DNA from: a virus
Taxonomy: Duplodnaviria > Heunggongvirae > Uroviricota > Caudoviricetes
Strand: one strand, 5' to 3'
Virus record (IMG/VR): IMGVR_UViG_2654587570_000013
Span: 1 to 35,061 of that record
DNA length: 35,061 nt
Below, piece after piece: positions 526 through 27,601 of this stretch; within the stretch, counting starts at the first letter, position 1; each line of letters begins with the position of its first letter. The translations under genes were made by a program, and so were the position numbers. Below the pieces are notes generated by a model. That model worked only from the letters and a program-made list of their open reading frames with translations. It searched no databases and was not told where the DNA came from.

Positions 526-528
526 GCA

Positions 529-3762: not shown

Positions 3763-3808
3763 AGTAGTGAATCCTCAATAAAATAATATTCACTACTATT
3801 TATAAGAA

Positions 3809-4166: not shown

Positions 4167-4171
4167 TAATT

Positions 4172-4525: not shown

Positions 4526-4534
4526 ATTACCCCC

Positions 4535-4882: not shown

Positions 4883-4920
4883 GTTATACCCCCATAAGAT
4901 TCTATGAGGGTATTTATTGA

Positions 4921-5604: not shown

Positions 5605-5605
5605 G

Positions 5606-5776: not shown

Positions 5777-5794
5777 ATATTCACCCCTTTATTA

Positions 5795-6073: not shown

Positions 6074-6127
6074 TACGCCCCCGATATTTTTATATAATTT
6101 AATGGCAGAATTATTTAGATAAAAATA

Positions 6128-6165
6128 ATCCCGCCTAACTCAAAAGAATTAAGCGGGATTAATTA
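6128..6165 (-). terminator. putative hairpin terminator after J-like gene
   Basis: ATCCCGC ... GCGGGAT stem with a long loop; T-rich on the minus strand. Confidence 0.35.
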
Positions 6166-6178
6166 TTAGAATTAAATT

Positions 6179-10344: not shown

Positions 10345-10390
10345 GTTGAATACCTCCATGCAGTTATTTACTAGGCTTAGGGAGAAGGGA

Positions 10391-11604: not shown

Positions 11605-11610
11605 AGAAAA

Positions 11611-11648
11611 GCCCCCATAGTTTTATGATTATTTATGACTATGGGGGC
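11611..11648 (-). terminator. intercistronic hairpin (attenuator) between tape measure and M-like gene
   Basis: GCCCCCATAG ... CTATGGGGGC 10-bp stem with flanking A/T runs. Confidence 0.4.
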
Positions 11649-11654
11649 TTTTAA

Positions 11655-14084
11655 TTACATCTTACGACGCTGTGCGTCTTCTACCGCCTGAGCAACTAAC
11701 TTAGCGTGACGTTTGATAGCATCCATGACCATCTTGTCTGAGCTATTAACGTTGCCGTTAATGTTCAAAGGCGCATTAACTTCAATCGGCTGAGAGTTAC
11801 CACCACCTGATTTTTGAGCAGCAAGGAAGTCTTTCAAATCGCCGTTAGTACGCTGATCAACTACTCGTTCACCCTTATCAAGCAACCATGTACCCTCACG
11901 CGGGATGTTATCGATACCATCATGAGCCATACCGCTAACGTTAGTAGACTTGATGTTTGCGATGTTCCCCATGTTCTGAGAAACAGCCAATGCAGCAGCA
12001 GCGATCTTTTGTCCTGTGGTGACGTTGGTCGGATCGTTCCATGCATCGGTAGCAGCCGTCCACATGTTCACCGTCGCTTGTCCGATAGAGAATGCTTTAT
12101 GAGCATTGAAAGCCATCTGCATAGCTTTAGTGTTTTCCTGCCCGAAGAGAGTCATTGCAGCAGCAAAACCGCCATACATATCATCGGCTATTGACTGGCG
12201 AGCATCAGCATATTTCTTTTCAATTGCAGCCATCCGTTTTTGATGGTTTTCATTGAGTTTTTCTAATGCTTCCATCCGTTTAGCCGGATCATTAATACCG
12301 TCAATCTTGAGTTTATCGGTCTTATAATCTTGTTCAGCATCCGATTTCTCTTTATCGATTGCATTAAATTTAGCAAACGGATTATTTGAGTCTTGATAAT
12401 CATAACCACTAGTTAATTGATTGGTTTTATAACCATCCATTCCCTGTAAAGAATTTTCAATCTGAGAATAGTTTTGCTCGGTATCGTTCACACGACGCAT
12501 ATATTCTTCGTAGGAGATAGCTTTACCATCAAGTAACCGTTTATGGCTTTCTAGCTCGTTGTCCCTGATTTGTTGCAATTGTGTTAAAGCATTCAGAGCA
12601 TCAATCGGATCAGCACCCAACATCATTTTATAAACGTTTTCAGTATTCTGATCGATTAGCGCCTGGCGTTTCGCGGCTGCGTCTTCCTGAGAGATTAAGC
12701 CCAGAGCTAACGCGTCGTTCACATCTTTTAAGCTGTTTTGCAACTGGCTATTTTGAGAAGTGATAGACGCTGCAACTTGCCCTTGCAATTTAACATCAAG
12801 TGCATTCAGTCGCTTGATTGCATCCTCGCGTGCTTTCTGTGCTTTTTCTGCGGCTTCCTTAGCCTTTTTAGCTGCCTCTTCCGCTTTCTTGCGTGCTTCT
12901 TCTTCGGCTTTCTTCTCATTACCAGACTTACCCAATGATTCTGGTCTTACTGGTTTATTTGGTATAGTCAAATCACGGTTAGGATCTGCCTTGCGGGTTA
13001 GATGTTCCCCGTTATCGACAACAATCAGAGAGCCATTTTTCTTATAAGAATCACCAAAACGTTTCTTAAATCCTTCAACATCAAAGCCAGCAGTACGAGG
13101 ATCGACACCAGCACCACGGATCGCGGCCTTTTCCCAATCTGCCAGATTATTCCAACGCTTTTCTTTATTGTACTTGTCAATAATTTTTTGAGCGTCTTTA
13201 TGGTTGGCGTTAAGAATACCGCCAGTTGCGGTCTTGCCTTCTTTATTCAGTCGATCTAATGCCCTGAATAGAGAACTCTTTTCCCAATCAATATTAAACC
13301 AGTCAAATAACCAGTTTAAACTATCAACCAGCGGACCAGAAATGGTCATACCGACACCTTTCAGGTTATTTTCCAGCTTATTGATATTTTGAGAAAATTT
13401 ATCATATTTTTTAGCGTTTTCTTCGGTGACGTTAACAGATTGATTCTGAATAGCGATCATCGCCTCTTGAGCAGTATTATATTTCTCAAGCTGGCTGGTC
13501 ATATGGCTTGAATCACTGGCTAAAGATTCCATCATGAACTTGATTTCAGCCATTGATTTTCCGGCTTTCTTCATGTCATAGAACACTTGGATCGCCGCTT
13601 TCATACCACCTTGCGGATCAGTCATGAAGTGAGCATAGTTTTCTAACTTAAGGCCAACCGATTCTAAGTCATCGGCAATACCGCCACCGTTAGCCCATGC
13701 ATCACCCATTTTATCTAAGGTGTCTTTGTTGATATCACCAAATTTTTCAACTGTTAGGCCAGTACCAGAAAATTCCTTTTCCAGTCTTTGAAGGGATTCA
13801 ATCGAGAGTCCGGTCGCCTTAGATACTTCTGAATATTGTTTAACGTATTCCGCGCCAGCTTTAGCGGCTGCAACCACTGCGGTCGCAACTAAGCCGATAC
13901 CACCAGCAGCTAAACCAGCAGAGCCAGCAATACCACGAAGAGATCCAGTCAGACCAGACAAGCCACCACCAAAATCAATATTACTTGCCTTTTCAGACAA
14001 ATCATCGAGCAGGTCAGCGGCTTCACTAGTGCTTCTCTTTAGCCCTTTATTATCCCCTTCTATTGTTACTATATGTTTTGTCAT
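11655..14084 (-). CDS. tail tape measure protein
   Basis: 809 aa; Ala/Gly-rich N-terminal hydrophobic stretch, long alpha-helical/coiled-coil body; canonical position after the chaperone pair and before the tip genes. Confidence 0.85.
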   Translation of the reverse strand: MTKHIVTIEGDNKGLKRSTSEAADLLDDLSEKASNIDFGGGLSGLTGSLRGIAGSAGLAAGGIGLVATAVVAAAKAGAEYVKQYSEVSKATGLSIESLQRLEKEFSGTGLTVEKFGDINKDTLDKMGDAWANGGGIADDLESVGLKLENYAHFMTDPQGGMKAAIQVFYDMKKAGKSMAEIKFMMESLASDSSHMTSQLEKYNTAQEAMIAIQNQSVNVTEENAKKYDKFSQNINKLENNLKGVGMTISGPLVDSLNWLFDWFNIDWEKSSLFRALDRLNKEGKTATGGILNANHKDAQKIIDKYNKEKRWNNLADWEKAAIRGAGVDPRTAGFDVEGFKKRFGDSYKKNGSLIVVDNGEHLTRKADPNRDLTIPNKPVRPESLGKSGNEKKAEEEARKKAEEAAKKAKEAAEKAQKAREDAIKRLNALDVKLQGQVAASITSQNSQLQNSLKDVNDALALGLISQEDAAAKRQALIDQNTENVYKMMLGADPIDALNALTQLQQIRDNELESHKRLLDGKAISYEEYMRRVNDTEQNYSQIENSLQGMDGYKTNQLTSGYDYQDSNNPFAKFNAIDKEKSDAEQDYKTDKLKIDGINDPAKRMEALEKLNENHQKRMAAIEKKYADARQSIADDMYGGFAAAMTLFGQENTKAMQMAFNAHKAFSIGQATVNMWTAATDAWNDPTNVTTGQKIAAAALAVSQNMGNIANIKSTNVSGMAHDGIDNIPREGTWLLDKGERVVDQRTNGDLKDFLAAQKSGGGNSQPIEVNAPLNINGNVNSSDKMVMDAIKRHAKLVAQAVEDAQRRKM

Positions 14085-14095
14085 AAATTACCCCT

Positions 14096-14482
14096 TTAAC
14101 CGCTTCTGAGTTTCTCAAGCAAAGATGGATCAAACATGTTCAGCATTGTCGCTTTACGTTCTTCTTCTTTCTTGCGTACAAGTTCTTCCTGTTCTTCTTT
14201 AGTTTTAAAGAGTTTTTCTTCTCTAATTAATTGGAATTGGCTAGGCTTGAGTTTCTTTGCAGTTTCACGAGTCATTCCTTGCGACGTCATATACATGGAA
14301 TACTGCAACATCGCATTCTGCATATCATGAAACGCGGGGCTTTGTGGTTCTAAGTAGGTGTCGAAAATGTATAATTTCCAAAATAGAGTGATTGGCATAT
14401 TATCCATTTCATCTTTACTAAGCCCCGATCTCATCATTTGCCGGAAATAGAAATTCAGAAGCGGGTTTACTTTACCTCGTTT
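14096..14482 (-). CDS. tail assembly chaperone extension (lambda T-like; candidate -1 frameshift product with upstream gene)
   Basis: Reading frame is open from 14482 to 14096; it overlaps the 3' end of the G-like ORF in the -1 frame and has no well-placed independent start. Confidence 0.4.
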   Translation of the reverse strand, partial: KRGKVNPLLNFYFRQMMRSGLSKDEMDNMPITLFWKLYIFDTYLEPQSPAFHDMQNAMLQYSMYMTSQGMTRETAKKLKPSQFQLIREEKLFKTKEEQEELVRKKEEERKATMLNMFDPSLLEKLRSG

Positions 14483-14775
14483 TCAATTACCGCCGGATCT
14501 TGCATCAATGAGGCTTGAGCAACCAAACCGATTAATTCACTGCGGACGTTAGTATACAGTGCCTTAACTTGTTCAATAGATTCAAATACTGGTTTACCGT
14601 CTTCATCTTCAATACAACGAAGAATCGAACGTTCGTCACGGTCTTCTTTATCAGTATTAAAAACATGTTCGTTAAATTCTTTTACTGACATAGGGCGAGC
14701 ATAGAAAGTGAATCCACCGATGGTCAGAGATTCGCGTTTCGGAGAGAGTGCGGCTAACATTTCGTTAATATTCAT
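14467..14775 (-). CDS. tail assembly chaperone (lambda G-like position)
   Basis: 102-aa acidic ORF between the tail tube gene and the tape measure gene. Confidence 0.5.
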   Translation of the reverse strand: MNINEMLAALSPKRESLTIGGFTFYARPMSVKEFNEHVFNTDKEDRDERSILRCIEDEDGKPVFESIEQVKALYTNVRSELIGLVAQASLMQDPAVIENEVK

Positions 14776-14830
14776 TCTTGTTTCCTCTTAAGTTAATTAG
14801 ATATGTTTATTTAGAATTGGAAACAAAAAA

Positions 14831-14848
14831 GCCACCCCGAAGGATGGC
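14831..14848 (-). terminator. hairpin terminator/attenuator after the tail tube gene
   Basis: On the minus strand GCCAUCC-UUCG-GGGUGGC (UUCG tetraloop) followed by a T-run. Confidence 0.45.
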
Positions 14849-14857
14849 TAGATAATA

Positions 14858-15328
14858 TTAGACTTTCTGGAAAACAGCTTGTTTGACCGGAGCACCATCT
14901 ACTACAAAGGTGAAGGTACGGCCTACTACAGCATCCTCACCACCAGTCATGGTAGTTTTAGACAGGAAGCCGTTATAAGCGATATGTACACCAGATTTTT
15001 TCGTAGCATCGATGTAGTAAGCAATTTTAAGCTGTACGCGCTTACCGTCTTCGGTTGCTTTAATCAGTTTTTCGTGTACTTCGTTACCCGGCATGTAGTT
15101 GATCGAAAGTTCGATATCCGGTACAGACATACGACCAACCAGCTTACGGTTATACGGACCACCGAAGTTAGGAACATCGATAGTAGAACGTTCTACACCA
15201 GTTTCCGGGAAAGCCGCACATTCTGGAATTTCCAGATAGCTTTCACTGTCAAGATCGGTGTTAGTTACTTCTTCATGCAGAAACAGACCAACGAGGCCAC
15301 CAGAAAAAATATCAAATTTAGTAGTCAT
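14858..15328 (-). CDS. major tail tube protein (lambda V N-domain-like)
   Basis: 156 aa; INYMPGNEVHEKLIKATEDGKRVQLKIAY resembles the conserved lambda V segment as recalled (WMPGE...ALLAWFNEGD...YKIRF); very strong optimal-codon bias typical of an abundant structural protein; terminator hairpin downstream. Confidence 0.6.
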   Translation of the reverse strand: MTTKFDIFSGGLVGLFLHEEVTNTDLDSESYLEIPECAAFPETGVERSTIDVPNFGGPYNRKLVGRMSVPDIELSINYMPGNEVHEKLIKATEDGKRVQLKIAYYIDATKKSGVHIAYNGFLSKTTMTGGEDAVVGRTFTFVVDGAPVKQAVFQKV

Positions 15329-15382
15329 TATTCTTTTCCTTCTATTTTAAACAATAGGGCACATACCCGTAATTCTATTTAT

Positions 15383-15685
15383 TTAGCGGTTGCTCAAACG
15401 TCTATAACGAAGATGAGCGATCCCCCTATTTGTGCTAACGGTAATTACCGCCCCTTGCGGTGCAATACAAGAATGAATCTGTCCCCAATCATGACCCTTA
15501 TGGCTTCCAGAAACACACAAACCATGAATAAGCAATTCAGAGTCACCACCGCCACCACCGGAAGAATGAGCACAGAATGAAATAGTCCCGAAAGCGTCGG
15601 CTGTCCAACCGTTAGGAATATCAAACCATCCCTGATTTGCTTTACCCGCCCTATTCCCCAAAGCGCCATCTACCCAAAATGCCAT
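15383..15685 (-). CDS. small Gly/Trp/His-rich protein, paralogue 1 of 3 (unknown function)
   Basis: 100 aa; shares WFDIPNGW, a Gly-rich segment, D-SEL--GL and a C-terminal aromatic-basic tail with the two adjacent ORFs. Confidence 0.55.
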   Translation of the reverse strand: MAFWVDGALGNRAGKANQGWFDIPNGWTADAFGTISFCAHSSGGGGGDSELLIHGLCVSGSHKGHDWGQIHSCIAPQGAVITVSTNRGIAHLRYRRLSNR

Positions 15686-15990
15686 TAGTGCATTCTCCTG
15701 AATTTAAAATAATGCAAGCTACCTTTACCCAATGTAAAGCTAACGGTAGCACCAGCGCCAACTAAAGAACTAGCGCCCCAACTCCCGGCATCAGCCGCAT
15801 GATGACCCGATTCAATCAATCCATTTACGACCAATTCAGAATCAAGATCACCAGCACCGTTAATGGCTTCCATATGAGCAAAAACAATTCCGCATGAATC
15901 AGTAACCCAGCCGTTGGGGATATCAAAATATCCACCATTAGCCCAAATACTAATAGCGTTTGACATTCTTTGATTTATCCATCCAGCCAT
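15685..15990 (-). CDS. small Gly/Trp/His-rich protein, paralogue 2 of 3
   Basis: 101 aa; YFDIPNGW motif; its stop overlaps the start of paralogue 1 (TAATG). Confidence 0.55.
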   Translation of the reverse strand: MAGWINQRMSNAISIWANGGYFDIPNGWVTDSCGIVFAHMEAINGAGDLDSELVVNGLIESGHHAADAGSWGASSLVGAGATVSFTLGKGSLHYFKFRRMH

Positions 15991-16327: not shown

Positions 16328-19300
16328 TTACCCTAATTTAGCTTCAATTGCAGCAAGACGTTCACGAAGAAGTTTATTTTCTTCGCTCATTTCTTGGACC
16401 GCTTTAATTAAAAGCGCGTTCACTGCGGAGTTTGAAATTGTTAAAATTTCTTCTGGGTTATCAAAACCACCAATTTTTGCGGTTTTAACAGCTTCCGGTA
16501 ATACCTCTTGTAAATCCTGTGCGATAATACCAATCTCATGACCTATAACTTCTCGGTCATTAAGAGATTTAACTTTATCGTAGGTTTTAACTTTGAGTTT
16601 ATTTACCTTATCCACCGCATTTTCTTCGTAATCTTCAACATTAATTTTCAGACGACGATCGGAACGAATATAAACATCGTTAAAGTTACCATTACCAGGA
16701 CAGTAAAAAGTACCATCATGATGGAACTCGAATACAGCTTGAGGGTGACCAGCCGCTGGCGATGCCTCCGCAGATCCAACACGAATAATTGCTTGCCCCC
16801 AATTTTGAGGAACACGACGCATACCAAAATCGACGGCAGTTGTATACCCTTGATTGGTGATTAAACTTCTTCCTTTGATAATCGGATAATAACAGTCCGG
16901 TGAAACATAGCCATGATCGACAAATATTGGCGCTTCTAAGCCCCATTGATCACCCCAACCTCCAGATTGGCTAGCAGTCCAACGTTCACCATGAACATAG
17001 AATCGAACGTTATTGACATGAGTCATTTCGACACCTTTTGGACTTAGCGCGATATCCCCCGCGTTTGTAATATTGATAGCAGCATTAGTAGCATAGCTAT
17101 AGAACGCTAATCCATTATCAGCACCACCTTTACCGATATACCAGTTGTTATTATCAGCACAAGTACCCAACAAATATATCGACGAATCGCCCGTTTCGGC
17201 ATTCATGATGATTGCGTCAGAACCACGATTAACTTTAAGTTTCCCGAAGAAGGTGTTTTTAATGGTATTATCACCCAATCGTTCAAATTCGGCTAAAAAT
17301 CCTTTTGAGTCACGAAGGCTTAAAACGTTATTTCGACCTGTATTGCTTGCCCCCCAATGGACGAGTTCCATATAGTCCATAGATTGACGAGAACCAGCTT
17401 TAAAGAAAAGATTGTCCTCAAGACGAGTGCTACCATCAATTCCAAGATGCAAACAGCGTGCGGTCGCTGTGCCACCTAGATCTAATCCACCACCAGCAAA
17501 ATCATAACTAAATGGTCTACGGCTATTCCACCCACCGAAAGAATCACCGTGATCTGTGGAAAGAATATGGAAGCTAGTTCCATCATTACGGAACATCAAA
17601 CCATAATTACCACCTTTAACAGCCAAACGAGCATTTTCAGATAATGCAACTTCGCTATTCATTACAATTTTCTGGCCTTTACCACCAGTAATATGTAATT
17701 CACCATCTTCAATCAGGTTTATCGAGTTTTGACCGTTATCATTCCACCAAATAAAATCTTTGGTTGTTCCATCACCGAAGCCAAACCAGCCATTACGAAC
17801 ATCTTGTCCAGTGCGATAATCCATGAAATTAAAATGGCTTGATTCGTTTGGTCCTCGACGAATATCAATACCAGAATTTCCACCAACACCACCATCCAAT
17901 GTTAATCTCTTGACATGTAACCCGGTTGTTGCTGTCAGCAATAATTCCTGATTTGTATCTTCGTATCCAGTAGCAAGACGATATGCGTTATCATCAACTG
18001 TCTCATGCCAGATAGTGGCAGGAGCAGAACTACGGAAGCGACGCAACATTTTCTTAGCATTTGTTTGCTGTTCGTTCAAATGCTCAATGTCATATTGGCC
18101 TTGATGGTTTCCAGCAAAATTTAACGTTCCACGGTTGCTAAAGTTATTGAACGATGAAATGTTAAGAGCATCAAAAATTTCATCTGCAACAGGTTTTTCA
18201 CCGCCCAGGTATTCAGGAGTATCCAACAGGTTTAAAGAAACACCACCGGAAGAAACTTGATATTCTGCTAAAACAAATCCTGTATGTGCACCATAGTAAG
18301 CGTAAAGATCATAATTGTCGCCATCGGTTGGAATAGCGCAAAAATGTTGTTCATAATGCCAAATAGTATAATACGCATTGAATACAACACCTTTCGGGCT
18401 ATTGTTGCCGCATCGAATCACCAATTCGATAATATTGGCTTGTCCATTCATCCCGACGTTATAACCGTTACCACCAACTAAGCGGATCTTAGCACTACGA
18501 CCGTGTTGCTGTGGCATTGTCAAAGTGCCTAGTTTAAACCAACCACCCTCGATCCCAAAATTAAGCGTCTTCTGGAACAGTCGGTCAATTTCTGCTTTCG
18601 AATATGCGCCAATTTCGGCAGGAGTAGGTTTATCACCTTCATGATACATGCGGTGAGAATATGCCAAATGACCCAATTCATCATAGCCGTATGTTCTTAC
18701 CGTATGAACCGGATTAGACCCATAAGTGAACTCAAAGCCACGAGCATGATTAACACCAGATGGATGCGGAACATGCAAGATCATTGCAATATGACCCGCC
18801 AGGTCATTCATGCGGAATGCACCAAAGTAATCAAGATTACGCGCATTTGGATCATCAAAATAGTTTGCGGTCTTAGACAGCAAATAACCATCAGTATAAG
18901 TGTTTACGTGTTTTTTGATGTACTTGCCATCAGCAGATCCATCGGCTGCATCAATACGGCTTTCTAAGCGTGCCAATTCAGAATCAGTGTAAGACTTGTT
19001 ATTGTCAACTTTGCTATGAATTGCTGTATTTTTGGCTTCAACATCACGGGTTAATGCTGCGACGTTATCCGCTGCCTCTTGCTTATTGGCTGCAATCACA
19101 CCAGTAAGGTTATTGTAGGTGTCAGTTAACTGATTTTCCGCATAGACTTTATTTGCTGCGATAGTGCGGTCAGTTTCTGTCTTAATCAGATCAACTTTGT
19201 CATTGATTGCTTTGTCATTACTTGCGATTGTCGCGTCGGTACGGGATTTAATATCATCAACTTTTTTATTGATGCGGGTATCCAGTTCCTGGGTTGCTAC

Positions 19301-19738
19301 AGCAGCCGCATTTTTATTAGCGTTGATGGTATCCGACAATTCAGCTTTAACACCAGCAAGGTCGGAAGCAGCTTTATTTTTATTGGCCTCGATTGTCGCG
19401 TCGGTTTCGCGTTTAATTACATCAACTTTATTGTTAATTTCTGCGTGATTTGCTGCGATGGTTGCATCAGTAGTTTGTTTAATTTCATCTACTTTAGCGT
19501 GAATATTGCGGTCATTTACTGCAATTGTGCTATCCAGTTCTTGTTTGTTAGCATCAACTTTAGATTCTAGTGCCGCGTGAGTTTCAGGAGAAACAGAGAT
19601 TTGAACTACTTCATGATCTCGGTCTTTGGTAAAAATAACATGGTCTTTAAGGTTGATTGCTACCTCACCGACCTGTAATTGTTCCGGCGTTGGTTTTTTG
19701 CCAGAAACATTTGTTCGTTTAAATTGGATCGACTGCAT
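16328..19738 (-). CDS. tail fibre/tailspike with C-terminal intramolecular chaperone (peptidase S74-type) domain
   Basis: 1136 aa; N-terminal array of roughly 22-aa shaft repeats (KVDxIKxxTDATIxAN); C-terminal ~110 aa has the S-DxRxK autoproteolysis signature (YIRS/DRRLK) and a terminal coiled coil, as in T5 L-shaped fibre and K1F endosialidase chaperone domains. Confidence 0.85.
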   Translation of the reverse strand: MQSIQFKRTNVSGKKPTPEQLQVGEVAINLKDHVIFTKDRDHEVVQISVSPETHAALESKVDANKQELDSTIAVNDRNIHAKVDEIKQTTDATIAANHAEINNKVDVIKRETDATIEANKNKAASDLAGVKAELSDTINANKNAAAVATQELDTRINKKVDDIKSRTDATIASNDKAINDKVDLIKTETDRTIAANKVYAENQLTDTYNNLTGVIAANKQEAADNVAALTRDVEAKNTAIHSKVDNNKSYTDSELARLESRIDAADGSADGKYIKKHVNTYTDGYLLSKTANYFDDPNARNLDYFGAFRMNDLAGHIAMILHVPHPSGVNHARGFEFTYGSNPVHTVRTYGYDELGHLAYSHRMYHEGDKPTPAEIGAYSKAEIDRLFQKTLNFGIEGGWFKLGTLTMPQQHGRSAKIRLVGGNGYNVGMNGQANIIELVIRCGNNSPKGVVFNAYYTIWHYEQHFCAIPTDGDNYDLYAYYGAHTGFVLAEYQVSSGGVSLNLLDTPEYLGGEKPVADEIFDALNISSFNNFSNRGTLNFAGNHQGQYDIEHLNEQQTNAKKMLRRFRSSAPATIWHETVDDNAYRLATGYEDTNQELLLTATTGLHVKRLTLDGGVGGNSGIDIRRGPNESSHFNFMDYRTGQDVRNGWFGFGDGTTKDFIWWNDNGQNSINLIEDGELHITGGKGQKIVMNSEVALSENARLAVKGGNYGLMFRNDGTSFHILSTDHGDSFGGWNSRRPFSYDFAGGGLDLGGTATARCLHLGIDGSTRLEDNLFFKAGSRQSMDYMELVHWGASNTGRNNVLSLRDSKGFLAEFERLGDNTIKNTFFGKLKVNRGSDAIIMNAETGDSSIYLLGTCADNNNWYIGKGGADNGLAFYSYATNAAINITNAGDIALSPKGVEMTHVNNVRFYVHGERWTASQSGGWGDQWGLEAPIFVDHGYVSPDCYYPIIKGRSLITNQGYTTAVDFGMRRVPQNWGQAIIRVGSAEASPAAGHPQAVFEFHHDGTFYCPGNGNFNDVYIRSDRRLKINVEDYEENAVDKVNKLKVKTYDKVKSLNDREVIGHEIGIIAQDLQEVLPEAVKTAKIGGFDNPEEILTISNSAVNALLIKAVQEMSEENKLLRERLAAIEAKLG

Positions 19739-20654: not shown

Positions 20655-21077
20655 TTAAAAACGCGCTAGATAAGAAAATTTAAGGCTAAGTGTCCCAACG
20701 ATACCCCCATCACTAGAATCATCGTCATAATCGGTATTAGAGGCTACTGGAGTGATATCTGAAATAGAGAAGCCCAAATCTTTAAAACGTGGATTATCCG
20801 GCTGAATCTGGATTATCTGGCAAATACCCTCATGAATTTTGGTTTCATGATTCTGAGAATACAACTGCATTTCGATAACGCATTCAGCTTGCATTGCATT
20901 ACCACCACGGACCCTATTGTAAGTCTCATTCATTCCGGTAATCCAACAAACCACGTCATCACTAAAGCCTTGCTGAGTTTGTTCTACGTTTAAAGCCAGA
21001 CCTAAATCTTGTTCGATAATATCCTGCAAGGCGCGTTTGATTTTCAGTCTAGGCATATTATTAACGGTAGCGAGCAT
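20655..21077 (-). CDS. head-tail joining / tail completion protein (by position)
   Basis: Start placed at MLATVNN, which has a GGGGG SD; the ORF track extends to 21125. Located between the capsid and tail genes. Confidence 0.45.
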   Translation of the reverse strand: MLATVNNMPRLKIKRALQDIIEQDLGLALNVEQTQQGFSDDVVCWITGMNETYNRVRGGNAMQAECVIEMQLYSQNHETKIHEGICQIIQIQPDNPRFKDLGFSISDITPVASNTDYDDDSSDGGIVGTLSLKFSYLARF

Positions 21078-21351
21078 GTGTACCCCCTGCACGAGCAATA
21101 AAGCAATCAGAAGTATTATCACCATTGCGCTTAACGTATTGAACTTTGAAACGCTGATTTTCTACAGTGACAACATCACCCTGATTTAAGTCTCCCTCAC
21201 GACAAAATAGAAATTCTGTCTCTGTCATTACCCCTTGTTCGTCGGTAGTAGTAATTTCATGATAAGCACGAATTGATTTACCACCTTCCACCGAAAATAC
21301 AGGAGCACTTCGGAACATTCTTGATAATTGTGATTCTGATAATTTGAACAT
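21061..21351 (-). CDS. head-tail connector protein (by position)
   Basis: 96-aa ORF immediately downstream of the capsid gene and its terminator. Confidence 0.45.
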   Translation of the reverse strand: MFKLSESQLSRMFRSAPVFSVEGGKSIRAYHEITTTDEQGVMTETEFLFCREGDLNQGDVVTVENQRFKVQYVKRNGDNTSDCFIARAGGTHARYR

Positions 21352-21386: not shown

Positions 21387-21408
21387 AGCCCCACCGTTAG
21401 GCAGGGCT
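21387..21408 (-). terminator. weak hairpin plus T-run after the capsid gene
   Basis: AGCCC ... GGGCT stem; on the minus strand followed by TTTTTTG. Confidence 0.3.
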
Positions 21409-21545
21409 AATTATTATTTTGCTTTAGTCTTACGTTCTTTTTTAACTGTGGCTTTCGCCGTAACCGTCTGAGATTCTTCTTCCTGAGATGGAATCAGATT
21501 TTCTTCCCCCAAATCGGGGGAAGGTTCAGATGGTTCTACGTTATT

Positions 21546-23558
21546 TCATTCAGCGGAGATGTGAAGAACTTTCAGAGCTTCCGGCTGAACTACGGTGAAG
21601 TCCAGGTCTACCCAGATACGCGGAACGATAGCAGACTGTGCGCGGTAAGTGGTGTCGTCCATATCCAGTTCCAGACCACCCCATTCACCGATCATGATAC
21701 CGGAGAAGTCACCCAGAACGATGTGGTCTGCCGGAATAACGCCAGAAGTAACTACATCGTAACCAGCCAGTTTGCCGTTTTCGATGATATAACCGGAAAC
21801 GCCGTTATCTTTCAGGGTAGATTCCAGTTCAGCAGCAGTTGCACCGCTCATTGCAAACTTGATGGACTGTGCCGGAACGCCAGCGTCGGTCAGTGCTGCA
21901 ATTTCTTTCAGGAAGTCTTTGTAAGAGAAAGCAGCTTTCTTAGTAACGCGACCACCGTCTACCAGTTGCTTAACCAAACCTTTCGGACCGCGAGTATTGT
22001 CTTTGTCAGACAGAATCAGTTGTTCCAGTTTGATGCGAACAGCTTTGTTAATATGATCAGTGATCAGGGTAGCAATATTCGGAACAGTTTTCAGAGACTG
22101 ACGGCTGATCGGGTTGCCACCAGCAAAAGTTTTCGGAGCCATTTTCACGTTTTCAAAGGTAGCCTTCGACTCGGGGGCACTTCCATTTTCGTCTACAAAA
22201 CCAAAGGCATCAACGCTGGAAGCAGTCATTTTCGGTACAGCGATCGGGCTATTCAGACCAGACAGGACGGTCACGCCCAGACGACCCAGACACGAAGCAG
22301 GAAGCAGCATTTCGATGTATGATTCAGTCAGCAGTTTTTCGTCAGTTACAGCGGTCAGAGTAGTTTTGGTGTTACCATCAGCAGCAGCACGCAGAGCAGC
22401 AGCCGGAACGAATACAGAGCCACCGCGAGCAGCACGACCACGCTGCATTGCAGCACCAGCAGCCATAGCGGAATATTCAGCTTCGTTAGCACCCAGAGCA
22501 GCACCATCTACCAGAGAGCGAATTACGTTGTTCAGGTCAAAAGTTTTTTCCATTTTAGAGTCCTTAATTTGTTGTTCGTTGTTACGTTGAGCAGTAGCGA
22601 TTTTATTTAGTGCCTTAGTGCGGAATGCTTCCGGCGTAATTTCTTTATTTGCCAATGCGCGTTTAAATTCTTCATCGTCTTCGTTAATATTTAGCTCGCG
22701 AGCGATCTCGCGAATTTCTAATTCGTCTTCTTCGGAACGTTCAGCCACTTCTTCGATTTTTTCTTCTTCAACCGGAGCGGCTTCACGTTCTTCTTTTACT
22801 TCTTCTGCTTCCCGAACAGTTGAACTATCATCATCAACACTTTCAGGATGTTCAGCGTCTTTTCCGTCTTCGAGATTTTCATTTTCTTTATTCTCTTCAA
22901 CTTGGCGCTCTTGAGTTTCTTCAACTTCCGGTTCTTTATTTTCTTCTACCGGAGTTTCTTCAACCTGAGCGGCTTCTTGTTCTTCTTTGATTTCTTCGAT
23001 TTGTTCTTTAGTCATATCGCGTTTAGCCTCCAAATTAACTGTGATAGTATTTAGAGAGCGATTTAAACCGACCGAATCATCAGCAGGAACGGTGACAAAT
23101 GAGAGTTCATAGGGCGCCCACTTAGTAACAATCAATTGCCCTTTGGCGTAATCGATGTGATATTCTTTAATGTCATAGCCGACAGAAATTTTTTCCATCG
23201 TACCTTCAATGACTTTATTGCGAATATCATTAGCCAAAGTGCCATGCTTAGAGAATTTAACCAGAGCACGACCTACGTTATCCGCATCGATTCGAGCGTC
23301 GCAGACTACACCTAAATGATTATCGAAATTATGATTGAACAGCAACGGAGCGTTATTATTCAGACGAGACAGATCAACCGCTTCCGGTGTATGTACCAGA
23401 ATTTCATCTAGTACCACCATCTCTTGATTTTGCTCATCCCAGAATTGGCGCTGATACGGCTGTTCACTGGAGAAAGCAATTTCAAATTCGTATTGATCGT
23501 TATGCCCTTCGTTAATAACTCCACCGTAACCGTTAAGATCGCGGCGAAATTTAAGCAT
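21546..23558 (-). CDS. prohead protease - acidic scaffold-like linker - HK97-fold major capsid protein (single ORF)
   Basis: 670 aa; N-terminal ~170 aa protease-like, central ~150 aa extremely acidic/coiled-coil, C-terminal ~330 aa Ala/Gly-rich capsid-like region; strong codon bias; internal ATG at 22553 has an AAGGA SD. Confidence 0.7.
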   Translation of the reverse strand: MLKFRRDLNGYGGVINEGHNDQYEFEIAFSSEQPYQRQFWDEQNQEMVVLDEILVHTPEAVDLSRLNNNAPLLFNHNFDNHLGVVCDARIDADNVGRALVKFSKHGTLANDIRNKVIEGTMEKISVGYDIKEYHIDYAKGQLIVTKWAPYELSFVTVPADDSVGLNRSLNTITVNLEAKRDMTKEQIEEIKEEQEAAQVEETPVEENKEPEVEETQERQVEENKENENLEDGKDAEHPESVDDDSSTVREAEEVKEEREAAPVEEEKIEEVAERSEEDELEIREIARELNINEDDEEFKRALANKEITPEAFRTKALNKIATAQRNNEQQIKDSKMEKTFDLNNVIRSLVDGAALGANEAEYSAMAAGAAMQRGRAARGGSVFVPAAALRAAADGNTKTTLTAVTDEKLLTESYIEMLLPASCLGRLGVTVLSGLNSPIAVPKMTASSVDAFGFVDENGSAPESKATFENVKMAPKTFAGGNPISRQSLKTVPNIATLITDHINKAVRIKLEQLILSDKDNTRGPKGLVKQLVDGGRVTKKAAFSYKDFLKEIAALTDAGVPAQSIKFAMSGATAAELESTLKDNGVSGYIIENGKLAGYDVVTSGVIPADHIVLGDFSGIMIGEWGGLELDMDDTTYRAQSAIVPRIWVDLDFTVVQPEALKVLHISAE

Positions 23559-23604
23559 TTAATCACCTTTAATTAATTGGGGGCATTGCGCCCCCCGTTG
23601 GTTA

Positions 23605-25116
23605 TTAGGGATCGGCTGGGGAATTTTTTTCTTCACCCTCGCCATCAACGATAATATTTAGTGCGCTCTTTTCGGCTTGAATCTCTGAGAATACTTTTTC
23701 AGGATCATCACCACGTTCAAGAATAACGGCAGTACGTGATTTAAGTCCTTTATCAATTAAAGCAATATCAGCGTTTACGTCTTTAATAACATCGACAGAC
23801 TCGAAACGCGGACGAATAATAGTTGTATTATCGATAATATGTGGAATTGCAGTAATACGAATCGGAACAATACCACGCGCGGAATAATGGCGTAGATACG
23901 CTTCGAAAATTGGCAATACCACTGTTTCAATCAATTTGTTTTGAAGTGCTTTAACGCGGTTACGTTGAAGTAGTTCACCAAAACGTGCGGCGCTGTAATT
24001 TATTTGGCTAGTATCGCCAGTTAAGCCCTGATTGAACACGCCAAGACCCATCGCTATACTCTTGAACATTCCATCATTGAAGCTGTTAAAGTCATCACCA
24101 CTTTGCGATGATTGAATTGACTTGATTGTTGCCCCTTCCGGCAATTCCTGAATAGTACCAGGCGCGAAATCGTGAATAACTTCCGGCGCTTGATATTGGT
24201 CTTCATCTTCACCAGTATCAAAATCGTCACCAGAATCTTTCGGACGCTCGATGAACGCCATGCTACAACTTGAAATTCGTTTATGTACCAGTACAGCTTC
24301 GCGGAATGCGTCTTGATGTGCGATATCCTTAATCACTGGCAGGAAGTCAGTCACACCACGCAGAGATTCAGCCGCAAGTGGTTGATAATAATGGCATACT
24401 TGCGAAGCATCTACGCGATAGTTATCACCTGTGTAGGTCTGAGTCAGTAGGTTGATTTTACGAAACCAGTATGCAACAGGGCGCATTGTGTGTAGGTCAT
24501 ACTCCACACCTTGATATATCGCACGCTCTTTGCTTACTTCACGGTTGAGCGACCAGTCGCACTTATCAGCAGACAGGATAGAAACATTTAACTCATTGTT
24601 TTCTTTAGTTAAAACGATGAAACACTCACCACCCATAACGCGCTCACGTTCAGCCATTACCAGCAGTTCACGGAAGTTAAAGCGACCGTTACGAGAGAAG
24701 CGTTTAGCATTCTGCGCCCACTTCCAGAAAGCATTCTCAATCTGCTTATTCAGTGCGCTATCAAGTTTGCCATTTGATTTAACGATTGATGGCTTCGGAT
24801 CTAGGCCAGTACCTACCACCATATCGGTTATGTATTGCGTGTAGCGACTGCCTACGGAAGTGTTTAAGGCCAGAGTACGACCCTGATCATAAAGGCGCTT
24901 ACCGTTCGATTTGAGAGCCTTATTGAAGGTTCCGGTGATAGTATCTTGTTGAAGCTGTCCATCAATGCGATCACCAACCAGTCCTAAACTCCGAGTCGCC
25001 AAAGATCTCTGGTATTTTTCTACTTGTTTGTCGATGAAAATTTTTGGTTGTTGCTGGCGGTGATTAGTTTTAACTGGAGTTTCTACCGCCTTTTTGCGTC
25101 GAAAAAGATTAAACAT
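23605..25116 (-). CDS. portal protein (lambda gpB family)
   Basis: 503 aa; KSIAMGLGVFNQGLTGDTSQINYSAARFG resembles the conserved lambda portal segment as recalled (IAAGLGVSYEQLSRNYAQMSYSTARAS); located after the terminase gene. Confidence 0.8.
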   Translation of the reverse strand: MFNLFRRKKAVETPVKTNHRQQQPKIFIDKQVEKYQRSLATRSLGLVGDRIDGQLQQDTITGTFNKALKSNGKRLYDQGRTLALNTSVGSRYTQYITDMVVGTGLDPKPSIVKSNGKLDSALNKQIENAFWKWAQNAKRFSRNGRFNFRELLVMAERERVMGGECFIVLTKENNELNVSILSADKCDWSLNREVSKERAIYQGVEYDLHTMRPVAYWFRKINLLTQTYTGDNYRVDASQVCHYYQPLAAESLRGVTDFLPVIKDIAHQDAFREAVLVHKRISSCSMAFIERPKDSGDDFDTGEDEDQYQAPEVIHDFAPGTIQELPEGATIKSIQSSQSGDDFNSFNDGMFKSIAMGLGVFNQGLTGDTSQINYSAARFGELLQRNRVKALQNKLIETVVLPIFEAYLRHYSARGIVPIRITAIPHIIDNTTIIRPRFESVDVIKDVNADIALIDKGLKSRTAVILERGDDPEKVFSEIQAEKSALNIIVDGEGEEKNSPADP

Positions 25117-25126: not shown

Positions 25127-25621
25127 TTATCGCGTAAGACGTAATTTGATATTTTTAATCGGGCTAATTCCCTGTTTACGTCGTTCGGCTTGAATTAATT
25201 TTGATAACTGACGTTCATAATCGACTTTTAGAGTCTGGAGAACAGCCAATGACTCATAGGCGAAAGTATTCCCTTTCACTGTCATTGCTGATAATGCGGC
25301 TTCGTCCCCAGATAAACGGGCGAAAATAACTTGCTCGATTAAGGCGATAGTTTCCCGCAGATATTCTTTTTTGGATTGTTTGGCGAATACTGGTAAAACA
25401 GTTAATTCCTGCATTGATACCAGTTCTTCTTCCAAAGTGGTTACGATGGTATATTTACCTTCGGCAAAATCTAAGGTTTTGATCTCATGATTAGCCGGAG
25501 TATCATCAACCTGATAAATGATACCTTTACTATTTCCTACCTGAATTGTTACACCCTCTTCATTCGCCAGCGTGATTTTTTCGCCTTTACGAATTACTAA
25601 GGGAATTAGTTCTAAACTCAT
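25127..25621 (-). CDS. hypothetical protein between terminase and portal genes
   Basis: 164-aa ORF in operon context; no motif recognised. Confidence 0.45.
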   Translation of the reverse strand: MSLELIPLVIRKGEKITLANEEGVTIQVGNSKGIIYQVDDTPANHEIKTLDFAEGKYTIVTTLEEELVSMQELTVLPVFAKQSKKEYLRETIALIEQVIFARLSGDEAALSAMTVKGNTFAYESLAVLQTLKVDYERQLSKLIQAERRKQGISPIKNIKLRLTR

Positions 25622-25693: not shown

Positions 25694-27601
25694 TTAGAAC
25701 GATGTTACCCAACTACGGCCTCTATTTGGAGGTCTGACGATGTTTTGACGTTGCGGTCGTGTGATTGGCTTAGTTTCTTCGATTTGCTCGTTAGATTGCG
25801 ATTTAGGAGCTTTTACGGGTTCTTCGACAACGCGGTTTAAGCTGTCTTTCATTGCAATGAGTTTATCCCATGACATTTTTGAAAGGACGTAGCGAGAAGC
25901 CGCATAGCTATAAACCAGACAGTCGAGAGCCTCGTTTCGGGTACTACCTGGATTTTTCACCCAACGCACGCCAGTAGTAGTACGCTTGATGGATTCACTC
26001 AAAAGCTGATCGAGATAATCATCAGGAACGGTTTCTGATATCTCTAAACCAATATGAGGATTGTCTTTCAGGTTTCTAACCAGCATTTCACGAACAGCAG
26101 ATTTACCAACGTTAACACCCAGCATAAGCAATTCATGACCACCTGTGCGGGTAGGTTTAACCGGAATCACTGGAGCATTACCAGATGAACTACCTTTGAT
26201 CGCGTGTAGGTTCTTCCACTTACCGCAAATACGGTATCCGGCTTGAGTGAATCGACCGTTCGATGTATCAAGGAAGCTGGCGAGCATAGGAACACGATCA
26301 CCCGATACAGTAGTAAATTTGGTTTTATGGAAGTTGATTAATCTATCCCATACAGGGGATTCATATCGTTCACAGTTATGATCGTAAAAGCTGCGGTGAT
26401 CCAGAATGTAAACCTTATCTTTCGCTACACCTAAGATGGTAGTTTCTGCGCGATCTAATTGCTGGTCAGTACCCGCACATAAGAAAATCACGTCATCAGG
26501 GATATTCTCGATAGAAACATCTGTTTTGAGTTGTTCCAGTTCATTTGCTTCTACTGCCGTGTCCTGATCGTCGTATACCTTGCCTAACACGGTGTTAAAA
26601 AAGGATTGTAAATCAAAGGATTGCCACGCATGACTAAAATCAACCACACAAGCGCGAATCGTGCTGAAAGGTGAATACAGACGACTGATCCAGAATCCTG
26701 CTACCTCACTTTCACGGGTTGCTCTCCACTCTCCTTGTGCTACTGCCCTGATTCGTTCCCCTTCTGTCCATGCGTTCTTACAGTGGGGGCAAATATAACG
26801 AGCGGTATCAGGATCGGGTAAGTTCTTACCATCAATGTTACGCCATTCAAATTGAACGTTTTCCCACTCGATCACCTGGTGTCTACCGCAATGAGGACAC
26901 GGAACAAAAAACATACGCATATCGCTTGATAACCATTGCTGGTTAATGCTTCCCAGCTTACTGGTCGGGGTACTGGATACGACTAATCGACCTTCATCGC
27001 CAAAGGTAGTTAAACGGTTAGCAGCCAGTGCCACCGGATCACCTTCTTCTGAGGCTGTGGCAGCATCAATTTCGTCAAGTAATCCAACCTTTGCGGTCTT
27101 ACCACGTAGGGTTGATGGGCTGGTAAGCGATACCATGTACAGGAAGTGATTCGTTTTTAACTGGAGTTGGTTGTTGTTGTTAACCGCGTTGCGATCATTC
27201 TTGTCTGTAACCACGTCTTTCAATGCATCACATGCTTCGATAGACGGTCGGATCTTACCCGCGAGATATTGAGACATTTCTTTAGCGGTTGATTGTCCGA
27301 TAATCATATTGCATGGATCGTTAGCCATCTGGTTAAACAGGATACCGTTTAGGATGGTAGTTTTTCCGATCTGCGCACTGGTCATCAGTACATACTTTTT
27401 CTTATTCTCAAGGAAAGGAGCATCAATCATGCCTTTCTGGAATGACAGCAATTTAACTTTATCCCCCGCTTGAGGACCATCTACCAGCACCATATTCGCT
27501 TCGCACCATTCAGACGGAAGGAGCTTAGGCGGTGGAGTGATATATTTTGCGGCATTTTTAAGAATCTTTTTTAATTTTGCCTTATTAGAAATCAGTTTCA
27601 T
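25694..27601 (-). CDS. terminase large subunit (lambda gpA family)
   Basis: 635 aa; Walker A-like SAQIGKTT; VPCPHCG zinc motif; C-terminal [14 protein letters not shown] resembles lambda gpA RNEALDCFVYALAA as recalled; GAGGGT SD; first gene of the leftward operon. Confidence 0.9.

What the first reader, a model, noticed from the sequence alone, without database searches (positions are those of the whole stretch)
21546..23558. Protease, acidic scaffold-like linker and capsid domain fused in one 670-aa ORF, with a possible internal start
In lambda and HK97 these are separate or nested genes. Here a single frame spans a protease-like N-domain, a ~150-aa extremely acidic coiled-coil linker and the capsid domain. 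An internal ATG at 22553 (MEKTFDL...) is preceded by AAGGA, so a nested capsid-only product is possible.
Basis: partly seen in the sequence, partly recalled or inferred. Interest (0 to 1): 0.5.

Follow-up and report, generated by a model that had tools for sequence, protein, structure and literature searches.

The report
Protease-capsid fusion gene with internal starts
One prophage gene joins the capsid-trimming protease, an acidic spacer and the capsid shell protein, a known and common arrangement, and conserved internal ribosome-binding sites suggest it also yields shorter capsid-only products.

Summary
The 670-codon ORF (21546-23558, minus strand) is real. It lies in an E. coli prophage, directly after the portal gene.

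- **C-terminal domain:** an HK97-fold capsid protein. Its closest solved relative is roseophage R4C (8GTA).
- **Linker:** very acidic, but predicted disordered over aa 157-272, not coiled coil. Only aa 276-334 are helical.

The fusion is not unusual. At least 515 protein clusters and 80 viral contigs share it, and three-in-one capsid genes are published.

It is strongly supported by comparison. Met336 is invariant in 65 relatives down to 33% identity. AAGGA lies 7, 10 or 13 nt upstream in every locus with this Met. Its Lys codon is AAG in 14 of 14 cases, against 5 of 73 elsewhere. The local mRNA is unstructured.

A second internal start, ATG 23015 with GGAGG, lies at the protease/linker border and fits a family-wide positional pattern.

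The Met336 product is not capsid-only. It keeps a roughly 65-aa propeptide.

No shorter product has been observed; none of this has been tested experimentally.

The parts
21546..23558 (-). Full ORF of 670 aa (73.8 kDa): protease, acidic linker, helical segment, propeptide and HK97-fold capsid domain.
   Evidence: PGAP annotates the 98.5%-identical copy in E. coli UTAK-14 as one CDS.
23563..23569 (-). Shine-Dalgarno AAGGTGA of the main start (ATG 23556-23558).
   Evidence: Sequence. Duplex dG with the 16S 3' end is -6.9 kcal/mol.
23058..23498 (-). Prohead serine protease domain (about aa 21-167). Catalytic codons: His76 at 23331-23333, Ser125 at 23184-23186, Glu151 at 23106-23108.
23013..23031 (-). 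Candidate internal start 1: GGAGG (23027-23031), 11 nt, then ATG (23013-23015) = Met182. The product would be 489 aa (53.2 kDa): linker plus capsid, without the protease.
   Evidence: dG -9.3, as strong as true gene starts in the window. The Met182 motif is found in 216 of 223 E. coli-clade cluster representatives. The divergent alleles L084 and L085 have GTG plus GGAGA at this position. Family-wide, ATGs 20-50 aa after VPAD carry an SD in 48-74% of cases against 6-15% further downstream, and they exceed codon-shuffle nulls. Caveat: the SD is predicted to sit inside a hairpin.
22743..23090 (-). Acidic, predicted disordered linker (aa 157-272).
   Evidence: Composition. AF2 pLDDT below 35 with no secondary structure. 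Poorly alignable and of variable length in relatives.
22557..22733 (-). Helical segment (aa 276-334; helices 276-288, 296-303 and 309-334). It is the best candidate for a scaffold-like part.
   Evidence: AF2 pLDDT 61-76. Moderately conserved motifs in relatives, for example E281 and F312.
22551..22565 (-). The product would be 335 aa (35.2 kDa).
   Evidence: Met336 is invariant in 65 homologues down to 33% identity and in 223 of 223 E. coli-clade representatives despite three different intervening tripeptides. AAGGA lies 7, 10 or 13 nt upstream in 14 of 14 loci with this Met. The Lys codon is AAG 14/14 against 5 AAG and 68 AAA in other K-[DE] dipeptides. An in-frame ATG/GTG with an SD is found in 15/15 loci against 0/15 in each other frame. 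The mRNA is unstructured here.
22359..22550 (-). Conserved propeptide (about aa 337-400), containing the F-D-L-x-x-V-I-R-S helix and the GGxxFVP motif. It is inferred to be removed on maturation.
   Evidence: Conserved in both subfamilies. It lies upstream of the first residue of the deposited R4C virion capsid chain.
21549..22358 (-). HK97-fold major capsid domain (about aa 401-670, roughly 28.7 kDa when mature).
   Evidence: Pfam PF05065. phmmer to 8gta, E 4.5e-27. Foldseek top hits are R4C, RcGTA, HK97 and D3 capsids.
21387..21408 (-). Intrinsic-terminator-like hairpin plus T-run, between the capsid gene and the next gene (start at 21351).
   Evidence: 9-bp stem with 6 GC pairs, followed by TTTTTTG.

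Best explanation
This is the head-assembly gene of a temperate E. coli siphovirus-like prophage with an RcGTA/R4C-like module order: TerL, connector, portal, then this gene.

**Domains (shown).** The gene is a natural fusion of three functions that HK97 keeps in two genes:
- an S78 (HK97 gp4-type) prohead serine protease, about aa 21-167;
- a long acidic disordered spacer followed by a helical segment, aa 157-334;
- an HK97-fold major capsid protein with a conserved propeptide of about 65 aa, aa 336-670.

**Products (inferred from conservation, not observed).** The gene most likely makes more than one polypeptide through in-frame internal initiation:
- the full-length 74-kDa protein;
- a 35-kDa pro-capsid protein started at Met336 (ATG 22553, SD AAGGA);
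- probably also a 53-kDa linker-plus-capsid protein started at Met182 (ATG 23015, SD GGAGG).

**Mechanism (inferred).** All forms share the capsid domain, so they would co-assemble into one shell. The full-length copies would carry the protease and spacer to the inside of the procapsid by covalent tether. The relative strength of the three ribosome-binding sites would set the ratio of protease to spacer to shell protein.

After assembly the protease would cut every form near aa 395-401. That would release protease, spacer and propeptide and leave a mature capsid protein of about 270 aa, as seen in the R4C virion. This step is inferred by homology.
For: **Domain identity**
- Pfam and PHROG matches.
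- Invariant H76, S125 and E151, with the same 49-residue His-Ser spacing I recall for HK97 gp4 (my own knowledge).
- Fold match of the N-domain to T4 gp21 and herpes assemblins, and of the C-domain to R4C, GTA and HK97 capsids.

**Fusion is real and under selection**
- It is intact in at least 44 E. coli genomes and in 78 of 80 related viral contigs (one is cut by its contig end; in one the frame matched only the protease part).
- Synonymous diversity greatly exceeds amino-acid diversity in both folded domains.
- No separate protease, scaffold or capsid gene was detected in the ten neighbouring head/tail-module ORFs scanned.

**Met336 start**
- Met336 is an invariant column in 65 sequences down to 33% identity.
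- AAGGA lies at 7, 10 or 13 nt in all 14 loci with this Met, spread over about 8 lineages.
- The Lys codon is AAG 14/14 against 7% AAG in other K-[DE] dipeptides of the same genes.
- In DCP80 and L006 the Met is Leu and AAG is AAA. Both have another ATG with an SD 13-17 codons upstream.
- 15/15 in-frame hits against 0/15 in each other frame.
- It is among the least structured mRNA windows of the gene: top 0.3% in the window, median about 8% across loci.

**Met182 start**
- It has the strongest SD of any genuinely internal ATG in the window.
- The divergent alleles keep a start codon (GTG) and an SD.
- There is a family-wide positional enrichment and an excess over codon shuffles.

**Mature end**
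- The 8GTA chain equals R4C residues 362-629.
Against: - No experimental data exist for this prophage or any close relative. No shorter product has been observed.
- Within the window alone the AAGGA-ATG at 22553 is no better than 10.6% of internal ATGs.
- The loci are phylogenetically related, so the raw counts overstate independence. I count about 8 lineages.
- Most distant relatives ('pattern B', including R4C, VP882 and Bas97) lack the Met336 site. At the corresponding motif they alternate Leu and Met without an SD. The fusion can therefore work without this start.
- The Met182 SD is predicted to be base-paired. A simple frame control for that site was not significant: 10/15 in frame against 6/15 in frame +1. 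Four subfamily-A loci have no Met in the linker at all.
- The cleavage position is inferred only from what the depositors of 8GTA modelled.
Confidence: 0.7

Rival explanations
1. Only the full-length 74-kDa polyprotein is made, and every shell subunit brings its own protease and spacer. The internal SD-ATG motifs are inert relics of the separate protease and capsid genes that fused.
For: Most family members ('pattern B', including the cultured phages R4C, VP882 and Bas97) have no SD-ATG at the Met336 position yet keep the fusion. Site 1 lies exactly where a former gene boundary would be. Mosaic alleles break at that border.
Against: An unselected SD plus ATG would not survive in about 8 lineages at 30-40% protein identity while the residues between them change. 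The AAG codon bias of 14/14 against 5/73 points to selection on the nucleotides. Low mRNA structure at the site is shared across loci. By my own rough estimate, not computed with a tool, 415 copies of a 45-kDa internal part would fill more than half of a T=7 procapsid.
Confidence: 0.2
2. The K-(D/E)-x-x-M motif is conserved for a protein-level reason, for example as a recognition or cleavage site for the protease or as a capsid-contact residue. It would not be a translation signal.
For: The motif sits at the junction of the long helix 309-334 and the conserved propeptide, in a low-confidence loop typical of cleavage sites. In pattern B a hydrophobic Leu/Met occupies a fixed position in a conserved peptide motif without any SD.
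Against: Protein-level selection does not explain the exclusive use of AAG rather than AAA for the Lys. It does not explain the variable number of intervening residues giving 7, 10 or 13 nt. It also does not explain the joint change of AAG to AAA and Met to Leu in DCP80 and L006.
Confidence: 0.07
3. The internal SD-like sequences act as ribosome pause sites that help the domains fold one after another during translation. They would not act as start sites.
For: They lie at both domain borders: protease/linker, and linker/propeptide. SD-induced pausing has been proposed in the literature; this is from my own knowledge, and the effect is disputed.
Against: A pause site needs no ATG at a fixed in-frame distance. 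Here the ATG is invariant and in frame in 15/15 loci, against 0/15 in each other frame.
Confidence: 0.03

Closest known systems
HK97 gp4 (S78 prohead protease) plus gp5 (delta domain plus major capsid protein)
   Same: Same protease family, with His/Ser/acidic residues and the same 49-residue His-Ser spacing I recall for gp4 (my own knowledge). Same capsid fold. Same gene order after the portal. An N-terminal part of the capsid precursor is removed by the protease (the HK97 pathway is from established knowledge).
   Different: HK97 has two genes, and its protease enters the shell non-covalently. Here the two are one ORF, joined by a 100-aa acidic disordered spacer. The helical region before the capsid domain has no detectable sequence similarity to the delta domain.
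Dinoroseobacter phage vB_DshS-R4C gp6 (PDB 8GTA) and related Cronusvirus and Rhodobacter phages
   Same: Homologous full-length fusion: 629 aa, 31% identity, and the same TerL-connector-portal-fusion synteny. The virion capsid chain is only the C-terminal 268 aa.
   Different: R4C belongs to the subfamily without the Met336 SD-ATG; it has IGLSESEVKRY|SL there. Its spacer is Pro/Ala-rich rather than acidic. The R4C structure paper does not mention 'protease' or cleavage at all, though it describes the gene only as the capsid protein.
Pseudomonas phage MD8 gp5 (published three-in-one gene: protease, scaffold and MCP)
   Same: One 693-aa ORF with a protease domain, a scaffold-like middle and an HK97-fold capsid domain. 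[quoted passage not shown]
   Different: The MD8 protease is modelled on ClpP and aligned to the lambda gpC protease region, not S78. Its capsid domain is closest to that of phage Mu. In the passages I read, no internal starts were discussed.
Nested in-frame capsid-assembly genes: lambda C/Nu3, HSV-1 UL26/UL26.5, HFTV1 gp17/gp17.5
   Same: [quoted passage not shown] The arrangement sets the ratio of a rare enzyme to an abundant structural partner (bioRxiv 10.64898/2026.09.13.751334).
   Different: In those systems the nested product is the scaffold, and the capsid protein is a separate gene. Here the nested product or products would contain the capsid protein itself. Up to three nested products are proposed, none yet observed.
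'Major capsid and protease fusion protein' of actinobacteriophages, and fused capsid/protease of Rhodobacter RcC phages
   Same: Same architecture, recognised in annotation practice.
   Different: These are only noted in genome announcements. I did not test their sequence relationship to this protein.

Membership tests
Peptidase S78 (formerly U35; HK97 gp4-type prohead serine protease) | Significant match to the family profile above the curated threshold | tested here: met
   PF04586: 39.7 bits against a 21-bit cut-off, E 6.9e-10, aa 40-162.
Peptidase S78 (formerly U35; HK97 gp4-type prohead serine protease) | Catalytic His and Ser plus an acidic third residue, conserved | tested here: met
   H76, S125 and E151 are invariant in 151 representatives and present in all 81 loci examined.
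Peptidase S78 (formerly U35; HK97 gp4-type prohead serine protease) | Assemblin / prohead-protease fold | tested here: met
Peptidase S78 (formerly U35; HK97 gp4-type prohead serine protease) | Proteolytic activity on the capsid precursor | not testable with these tools
   Needs an S125A mutant and a product analysis.
HK97-fold major capsid protein (Pfam Phage_capsid PF05065) | Profile match and HK97 fold | tested here: met
   PF05065: 92 bits against a 24.2-bit cut-off. 8gta E 4.5e-27. Foldseek hits to R4C, GTA, HK97 and D3 capsids, E 6e-14 to 5e-9.
HK97-fold major capsid protein (Pfam Phage_capsid PF05065) | N-terminal part removed on maturation | not testable with these tools
   Inferred only from the homologue. 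The R4C virion chain starts at residue 362 of 629, which aligns to about aa 401 here.
Fused protease-capsid proteins (PHROG 617 'major head protein', PHROG 4523 'major head and protease protein') | Colinear full-length match, and one uninterrupted ORF in relatives, placed directly after the portal gene | tested here: met
   phrog_617 covers aa 21-665 on profile positions 24-621 of 626, E 1.6e-97. 149 of the best 150 cluster representatives are 560-893 aa. 78 of 80 viral loci have a stop-free frame matching both domains. Synteny.
Nested in-frame capsid-assembly genes (lambda C/Nu3 type) | In-frame internal start codon with a ribosome-binding site, conserved among relatives | tested here: met
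   Met336 with AAGGA. Met182 with GGAGG.
Nested in-frame capsid-assembly genes (lambda C/Nu3 type) | The shorter product is actually made | not testable with these tools
   No ribosome-profiling or proteomic data are available for this prophage.
Nested in-frame capsid-assembly genes (lambda C/Nu3 type) | The nested product is a separate scaffold, and the capsid protein is encoded by another gene | tested here: not met
   Both candidate nested products end with the capsid domain. None of the ten neighbouring ORFs scanned in the head/tail module matched a capsid protein.
HK97-type delta (scaffolding) domain | Helical, coiled-coil-like domain of about 100 aa directly N-terminal to the capsid domain | tested here: inconclusive
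   Helices at 276-334 and 342-393 are predicted with pLDDT 55-76. The acidic aa 157-272 are predicted disordered. There is no sequence match to the delta domain.

The most novel reading that the evidence does not exclude
A single phage gene carries the whole capsid-assembly toolkit. It delivers it as three nested in-frame products: protease-spacer-capsid, spacer-capsid and pro-capsid. Their ratio is set by the strengths of three ribosome-binding sites. The start at the protease/spacer border would be used across hundreds of lineages of fused capsid genes. The start just before the propeptide would be an innovation of the enterobacterial subfamily, relieving crowding inside the procapsid.
Probability: 0.45. 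Interest if true: 0.65.

Novelty: new variant of a known kind. Interest (0 to 1): 0.5.

Why it matters
Fused protease-capsid genes are common in prophages and environmental phages, but they are usually annotated simply as 'major capsid protein'. How such a polyprotein achieves the very unequal amounts of protease, scaffold and shell protein that other phages need has not, as far as I could find, been addressed.

Conserved internal start sites would give a simple answer. They would extend the nested-gene strategy known from lambda, herpesviruses and an archaeal virus to the capsid protein itself.

They would also matter for annotation, because two products are currently missed. They matter for engineering of capsid nanocontainers, where cargo or enzyme could be tethered at a tunable ratio. 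They may matter for capsid- and protease-sensing defence systems such as CBASS, which respond to these proteins.

The test is easy. A synonymous AAG to AAA change removes the Shine-Dalgarno sequence without altering the protein.

Tried and rejected
- **Sequencing error or missing stop.** Rejected: the ORF is intact in at least 44 complete genomes and in 78 of 80 viral contigs.
- **Coiled-coil linker.** Rejected for aa 157-272 by the AF2 result.
- **Bordetella BPP-1 as a relative with known processing.** Its capsid protein is uncleaved and it is not a fusion. Dropped.
- **Papers checked for processing of such fusions.** The CBASS escape-mutant preprint, the Thoeris paper, the Stx2 phage Sp5 paper, the Vibrio XM1 paper and the encapsulin preprint contained nothing on them.
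- **Simple frame control for site 1.** 10/15 in frame against 6/15 in frame +1 was inconclusive, because GAT-Gxx codons create +1 ATGs in acidic sequence. I replaced it with codon-shuffle and positional tests.
- **Synonymous-diversity dip as evidence for the internal starts.** Uninformative. The whole linker (aa 160-270) has near-zero synonymous diversity, which looks like recent mosaic spread rather than a local signal.
- **Two homologue searches** returned almost only near-identical E. coli proteins. Diversity came from the representative search, the viral contigs and a third search seeded with non-E. coli members.
- **Genome-contig scan with alignment A1** failed for lack of a conserved stretch.
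- **Split-gene relatives whose capsid gene starts at the Met336 equivalent.** I did not find any. The matching PHROG families have profile lengths of 551-752, consistent with fusions.
Full report
**1. What is in the sequence**

The window holds one stop-free ORF of 670 codons at 21546..23558 on the minus strand. It starts with ATG, preceded by AAGGTGA.

Its neighbours are typical of a phage head module. Upstream lie a large terminase (25694-27601), a small head-tail joining protein (25127-25621) and a portal (23605-25116). Downstream lie small proteins and tail-tube-like genes. None of the ten neighbouring head/tail-module ORFs I scanned matched a protease, scaffold or capsid family.

The ORF is 98.5% identical to a gene in E. 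coli UTAK-14 that NCBI's pipeline annotates as a single CDS, 'phage major capsid protein'. That gene sits in a prophage inserted in ycdX. Forty-nine of 5,426 complete E. coli genomes carry the gene, and in 44 the match covers at least 80% of it. The window is therefore an E. coli prophage, and the long ORF is not a sequencing artefact.

**2. The domains**

Pfam finds Peptidase_S78 at aa 40-162 and Phage_capsid (HK97 family) at aa 415-666, both above the curated thresholds. S78 is the family formerly called U35, the caudovirus prohead serine protease.

*Protease.* In an alignment with 150 representatives of 50%-identity clusters, His76, Ser125 and Glu151 are invariant. The same triad is present in all 81 DNA loci I examined. 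The 49-residue His-Ser spacing is the one I recall for HK97 gp4 (His65/Ser114); that comparison rests on my own knowledge.

*Capsid.* The C-terminal domain matches the capsid protein of roseophage R4C (PDB 8GTA) by sequence (E 4.5e-27). By fold it matches R4C, RcGTA, HK97 and D3 capsids.

*Linker.* The linker is indeed very acidic, with 56 D+E in aa 181-333 and a net charge of -35. In the full-length model, however, aa 157-272 have pLDDT below 35 and no secondary structure. Only aa 276-334 form helices. 'Coiled coil' is not supported for the acidic part. It looks like a disordered spacer followed by a helical segment.

**3. Is the fusion unusual? No**

- PHROG 617 matches the protein end to end (E 1.6e-97). 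PHROG 4523 is named 'major head and protease protein'.
- A search of 1.84 billion cluster representatives found 515 with E<=1e-30. Of the best 150, 149 are 560-893 aa long and match in both halves.
- Eighty related viral contigs were retrieved. In 78 of them one stop-free frame matches both domains; one locus is cut by its contig end and one matched only the protease part.
- Cultured phages with the same long ORF include R4C, RcCronus, phiHAP-1, VP882, ECO1230-10, ep3 and Bas97.
- Fused capsid/protease genes are noted for Rhodobacter RcC phages (PMC8601537) and for actinobacteriophages.

**4. Where the mature capsid protein starts**

The deposited R4C capsid chain (268 aa) corresponds exactly to residues 362-629 of the 629-aa R4C ORF. 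This aligns to about aa 401 of the window protein.

Between Met336 and that point lies a segment conserved in both subfamilies, containing the helix F-D-L-x-x-V-I-R-S and the motif GGxxFVP. A product started at Met336 would therefore be a precursor with a propeptide of about 65 aa, not a 'capsid-only' protein. The cleavage position is an inference from what was deposited for a 31%-identical homologue.

**5. The internal start at 22553 (Met336)**

Taken alone it is weak. 10.6% of the 160 internal in-frame ATGs in the window's genes have an equally good Shine-Dalgarno match. Comparison changes the picture.

The family splits into two patterns just before the conserved helix. The window belongs to the first pattern.

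- **(a) Invariant Met.** In the window's subfamily (prophages of Escherichia, Shigella, Enterobacter, Cronobacter, Leclercia, Klebsiella and Pantoea, plus metagenomic viruses) a Met lies 4-6 residues before the helix. It is an invariant column in 65 sequences down to 33% identity, alongside the catalytic residues. It is present in 223 of 223 E. coli-clade cluster representatives, although the three residues before it occur in three versions: DSK, EQI and EKN.
- **(b) Conserved AAGGA.** In all 14 DNA loci with this Met, two to four codons upstream there is Lys-Asp/Glu written as AAG-GAN. This gives AAGGA at 7, 10 or 13 nt from the ATG.
- **(c) Codon choice.** That Lys is AAG in 14 of 14 loci. 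Other Lys-Asp/Glu dipeptides in the same genes use AAG 5 times and AAA 68 times. With about 8 lineages that are reasonably independent, this is still far beyond chance.
- **(d) Joint change.** In the two subfamily members where the Met is Leu (DCP80 and L006), the Lys codon is AAA. Another ATG with an SD lies 13-17 codons upstream.
- **(e) Frame control.** An ATG or GTG with an SD (dG <= -5) within 20 codons before the helix occurs in frame in 15 of 15 loci, and in neither other frame in any locus.
- **(f) Open mRNA.** The mRNA around the site is almost unstructured. In the window, a 63-nt segment folds at -0.9 kcal/mol against a gene mean of -10.9, which places it in the top 0.3%. The median across loci is about the top 8%. 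An 81-nt segment folds less well than 95% of its own shuffles.

In the second pattern, which covers most distant relatives including R4C, VP882 and Bas97, the motif is (I/V/L)-G-(L/M)-(S/T)-x-x-E-x-x-x-(F/Y)-S. Leu and Met alternate there, with no SD. Those phages evidently manage without this start.

**6. A second internal start at 23015 (Met182)**

*Evidence for*
- GGAGG lies 11 nt upstream, with dG -9.3. Only three of the 160 internal in-frame ATGs in the window score this well. The other two are really mis-called gene starts that PGAP places at those ATGs.
- The site is 25 residues after the VPAD motif that ends the protease domain.
- The Met182 motif is found in 216 of 223 E. coli-clade representatives. 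In two divergent alleles whose protease domain has been exchanged, it is replaced by GTG with GGAGA.
- Across all loci, in-frame ATGs 20-50 residues after VPAD carry an SD in 48-74% of cases. Those 50-130 residues after it do so in 6-15%.
- The share of loci with a linker ATG plus SD is 67% in subfamily A and 62% in B. Codon-shuffled linkers give 14% and 36%, and none of 100 shuffles reached the observed value.

*Caveats*
- The loci are related.
- Four subfamily-A loci have no linker Met.
- A simple frame control was inconclusive.
- In the window the GGAGG is predicted to pair within a hairpin. That could limit initiation there or couple it to upstream translation.

**7. Best explanation**

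The gene is a member of the known family of fused prohead-protease/capsid genes. It most likely yields nested products:
- the 73.8-kDa full-length protein;
- a 35.2-kDa pro-capsid protein from Met336;
- probably a 53.2-kDa spacer-capsid protein from Met182 (masses).

All share the capsid domain and would co-assemble. The full-length copies tether the protease inside the shell. The protease then trims all forms to a capsid protein of about 270 aa.

Domain identities and conservation of the signals are shown. The existence of the shorter products, their ratio and the cleavage site are inferred. I put the probability that Met336 is a functional start at about 0.7, and Met182 at about 0.5.

**8. 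Comparison with known systems**

The parts are those of HK97 gp4 and gp5. The architecture is that of R4C gp6 and, by analogy, MD8 gp5.

The nested-start logic is that of lambda C/Nu3, HSV-1 UL26/UL26.5 and the recently reported HFTV1 gp17/gp17.5. In those systems, though, the nested product is the scaffold, not the capsid protein.

In the searchable library I found no paper that reports internal initiation inside a protease-capsid fusion. Absence from this library is not proof of absence.

**9. Verdict**

The fusion itself is ordinary and already known. This is a testable and modestly new variant of the nested-gene theme.

Noticed in passing
window 21387-21408 (minus strand); also hairpins at about 21495-21516 and 23578-23597: An intrinsic-terminator-like hairpin with a T-run sits between the capsid gene and the next gene. 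GC-rich hairpins also lie just after the capsid stop codon and between the portal stop and the capsid SD. These may set the relative levels of head and tail transcripts, or stabilise the mRNA.
   Followed up: partly
window 22743-23080 (aa 160-270), compared in loci L001, L004, L005 and L084-L096: Among 16 E. coli-clade alleles, synonymous diversity is almost zero across the acidic linker while amino-acid differences persist. The flanking protease and capsid domains show synonymous diversity of 0.1-0.5. The cause could be recent mosaic spread of the linker module or a nucleotide-level constraint. It remains unexplained.
   Followed up: partly
L084 (E. coli ETEC1718) and L085 (CFSAN061761), against window 23006-23558: Some alleles keep the full fusion, but their first roughly 185 codons (the protease domain) are too divergent for megablast. 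The similarity resumes at about query nt 553-559, a few codons downstream of the Met182 codon (query nt 544-546), so the recombination joint lies close to the protease/linker border. ETEC1718 also has an extra 1-kb gene between portal and capsid.
   Followed up: partly
window 9925-10500 and 20655-21125 (minus strand): The longest-ORF starts of these two genes have no Shine-Dalgarno sequence. Internal ATGs at codons 53 and 17 have very strong ones (dG about -10.7 and -10.8). These match the shorter CDSs annotated in UTAK-14, so the real genes are shorter than the ORF list suggests.
   Followed up: partly
L003 (Escherichia phage DCP80, PQ671644.1, nt 1-15786): The record is a 141-kb genome classified as Straboviridae (T4-like). 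Its first 8 kb carry a TerL-portal-fusion capsid module of this temperate, siphovirus-like type, all annotated as hypothetical. This could be a chimeric assembly or prophage contamination.
   Followed up: no
Loci L016-L083 and R4C (L002), about 9 residues before the conserved helix: Most distant relatives share a conserved peptide, (I/V/L)-G-(L/M)-(S/T)-x-x-E-x-x-x-(F/Y)-S-(L/F)-x-x-A-(I/L)-R, at the border of linker and propeptide. It may be a protease recognition or cleavage site, or a docking motif.
   Followed up: no
window 16328-19738 (minus strand): The 1,136-aa tail-fibre-like protein begins with many tandem copies of a motif of about 20 aa (…VDxIKxxTDATIxANxxxINxKVD…), visible in the translation. 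PGAP calls the UTAK-14 copy a 'tail fiber domain-containing protein'.
   Followed up: no
E. coli genomes H67, H75 and H83: In several genomes the fusion gene is interrupted or truncated by IS elements (IS903B, IS1A, IS3). This splits it into pieces annotated as 'prohead protease' and 'major capsid protein', so those prophages are decaying.
   Followed up: no
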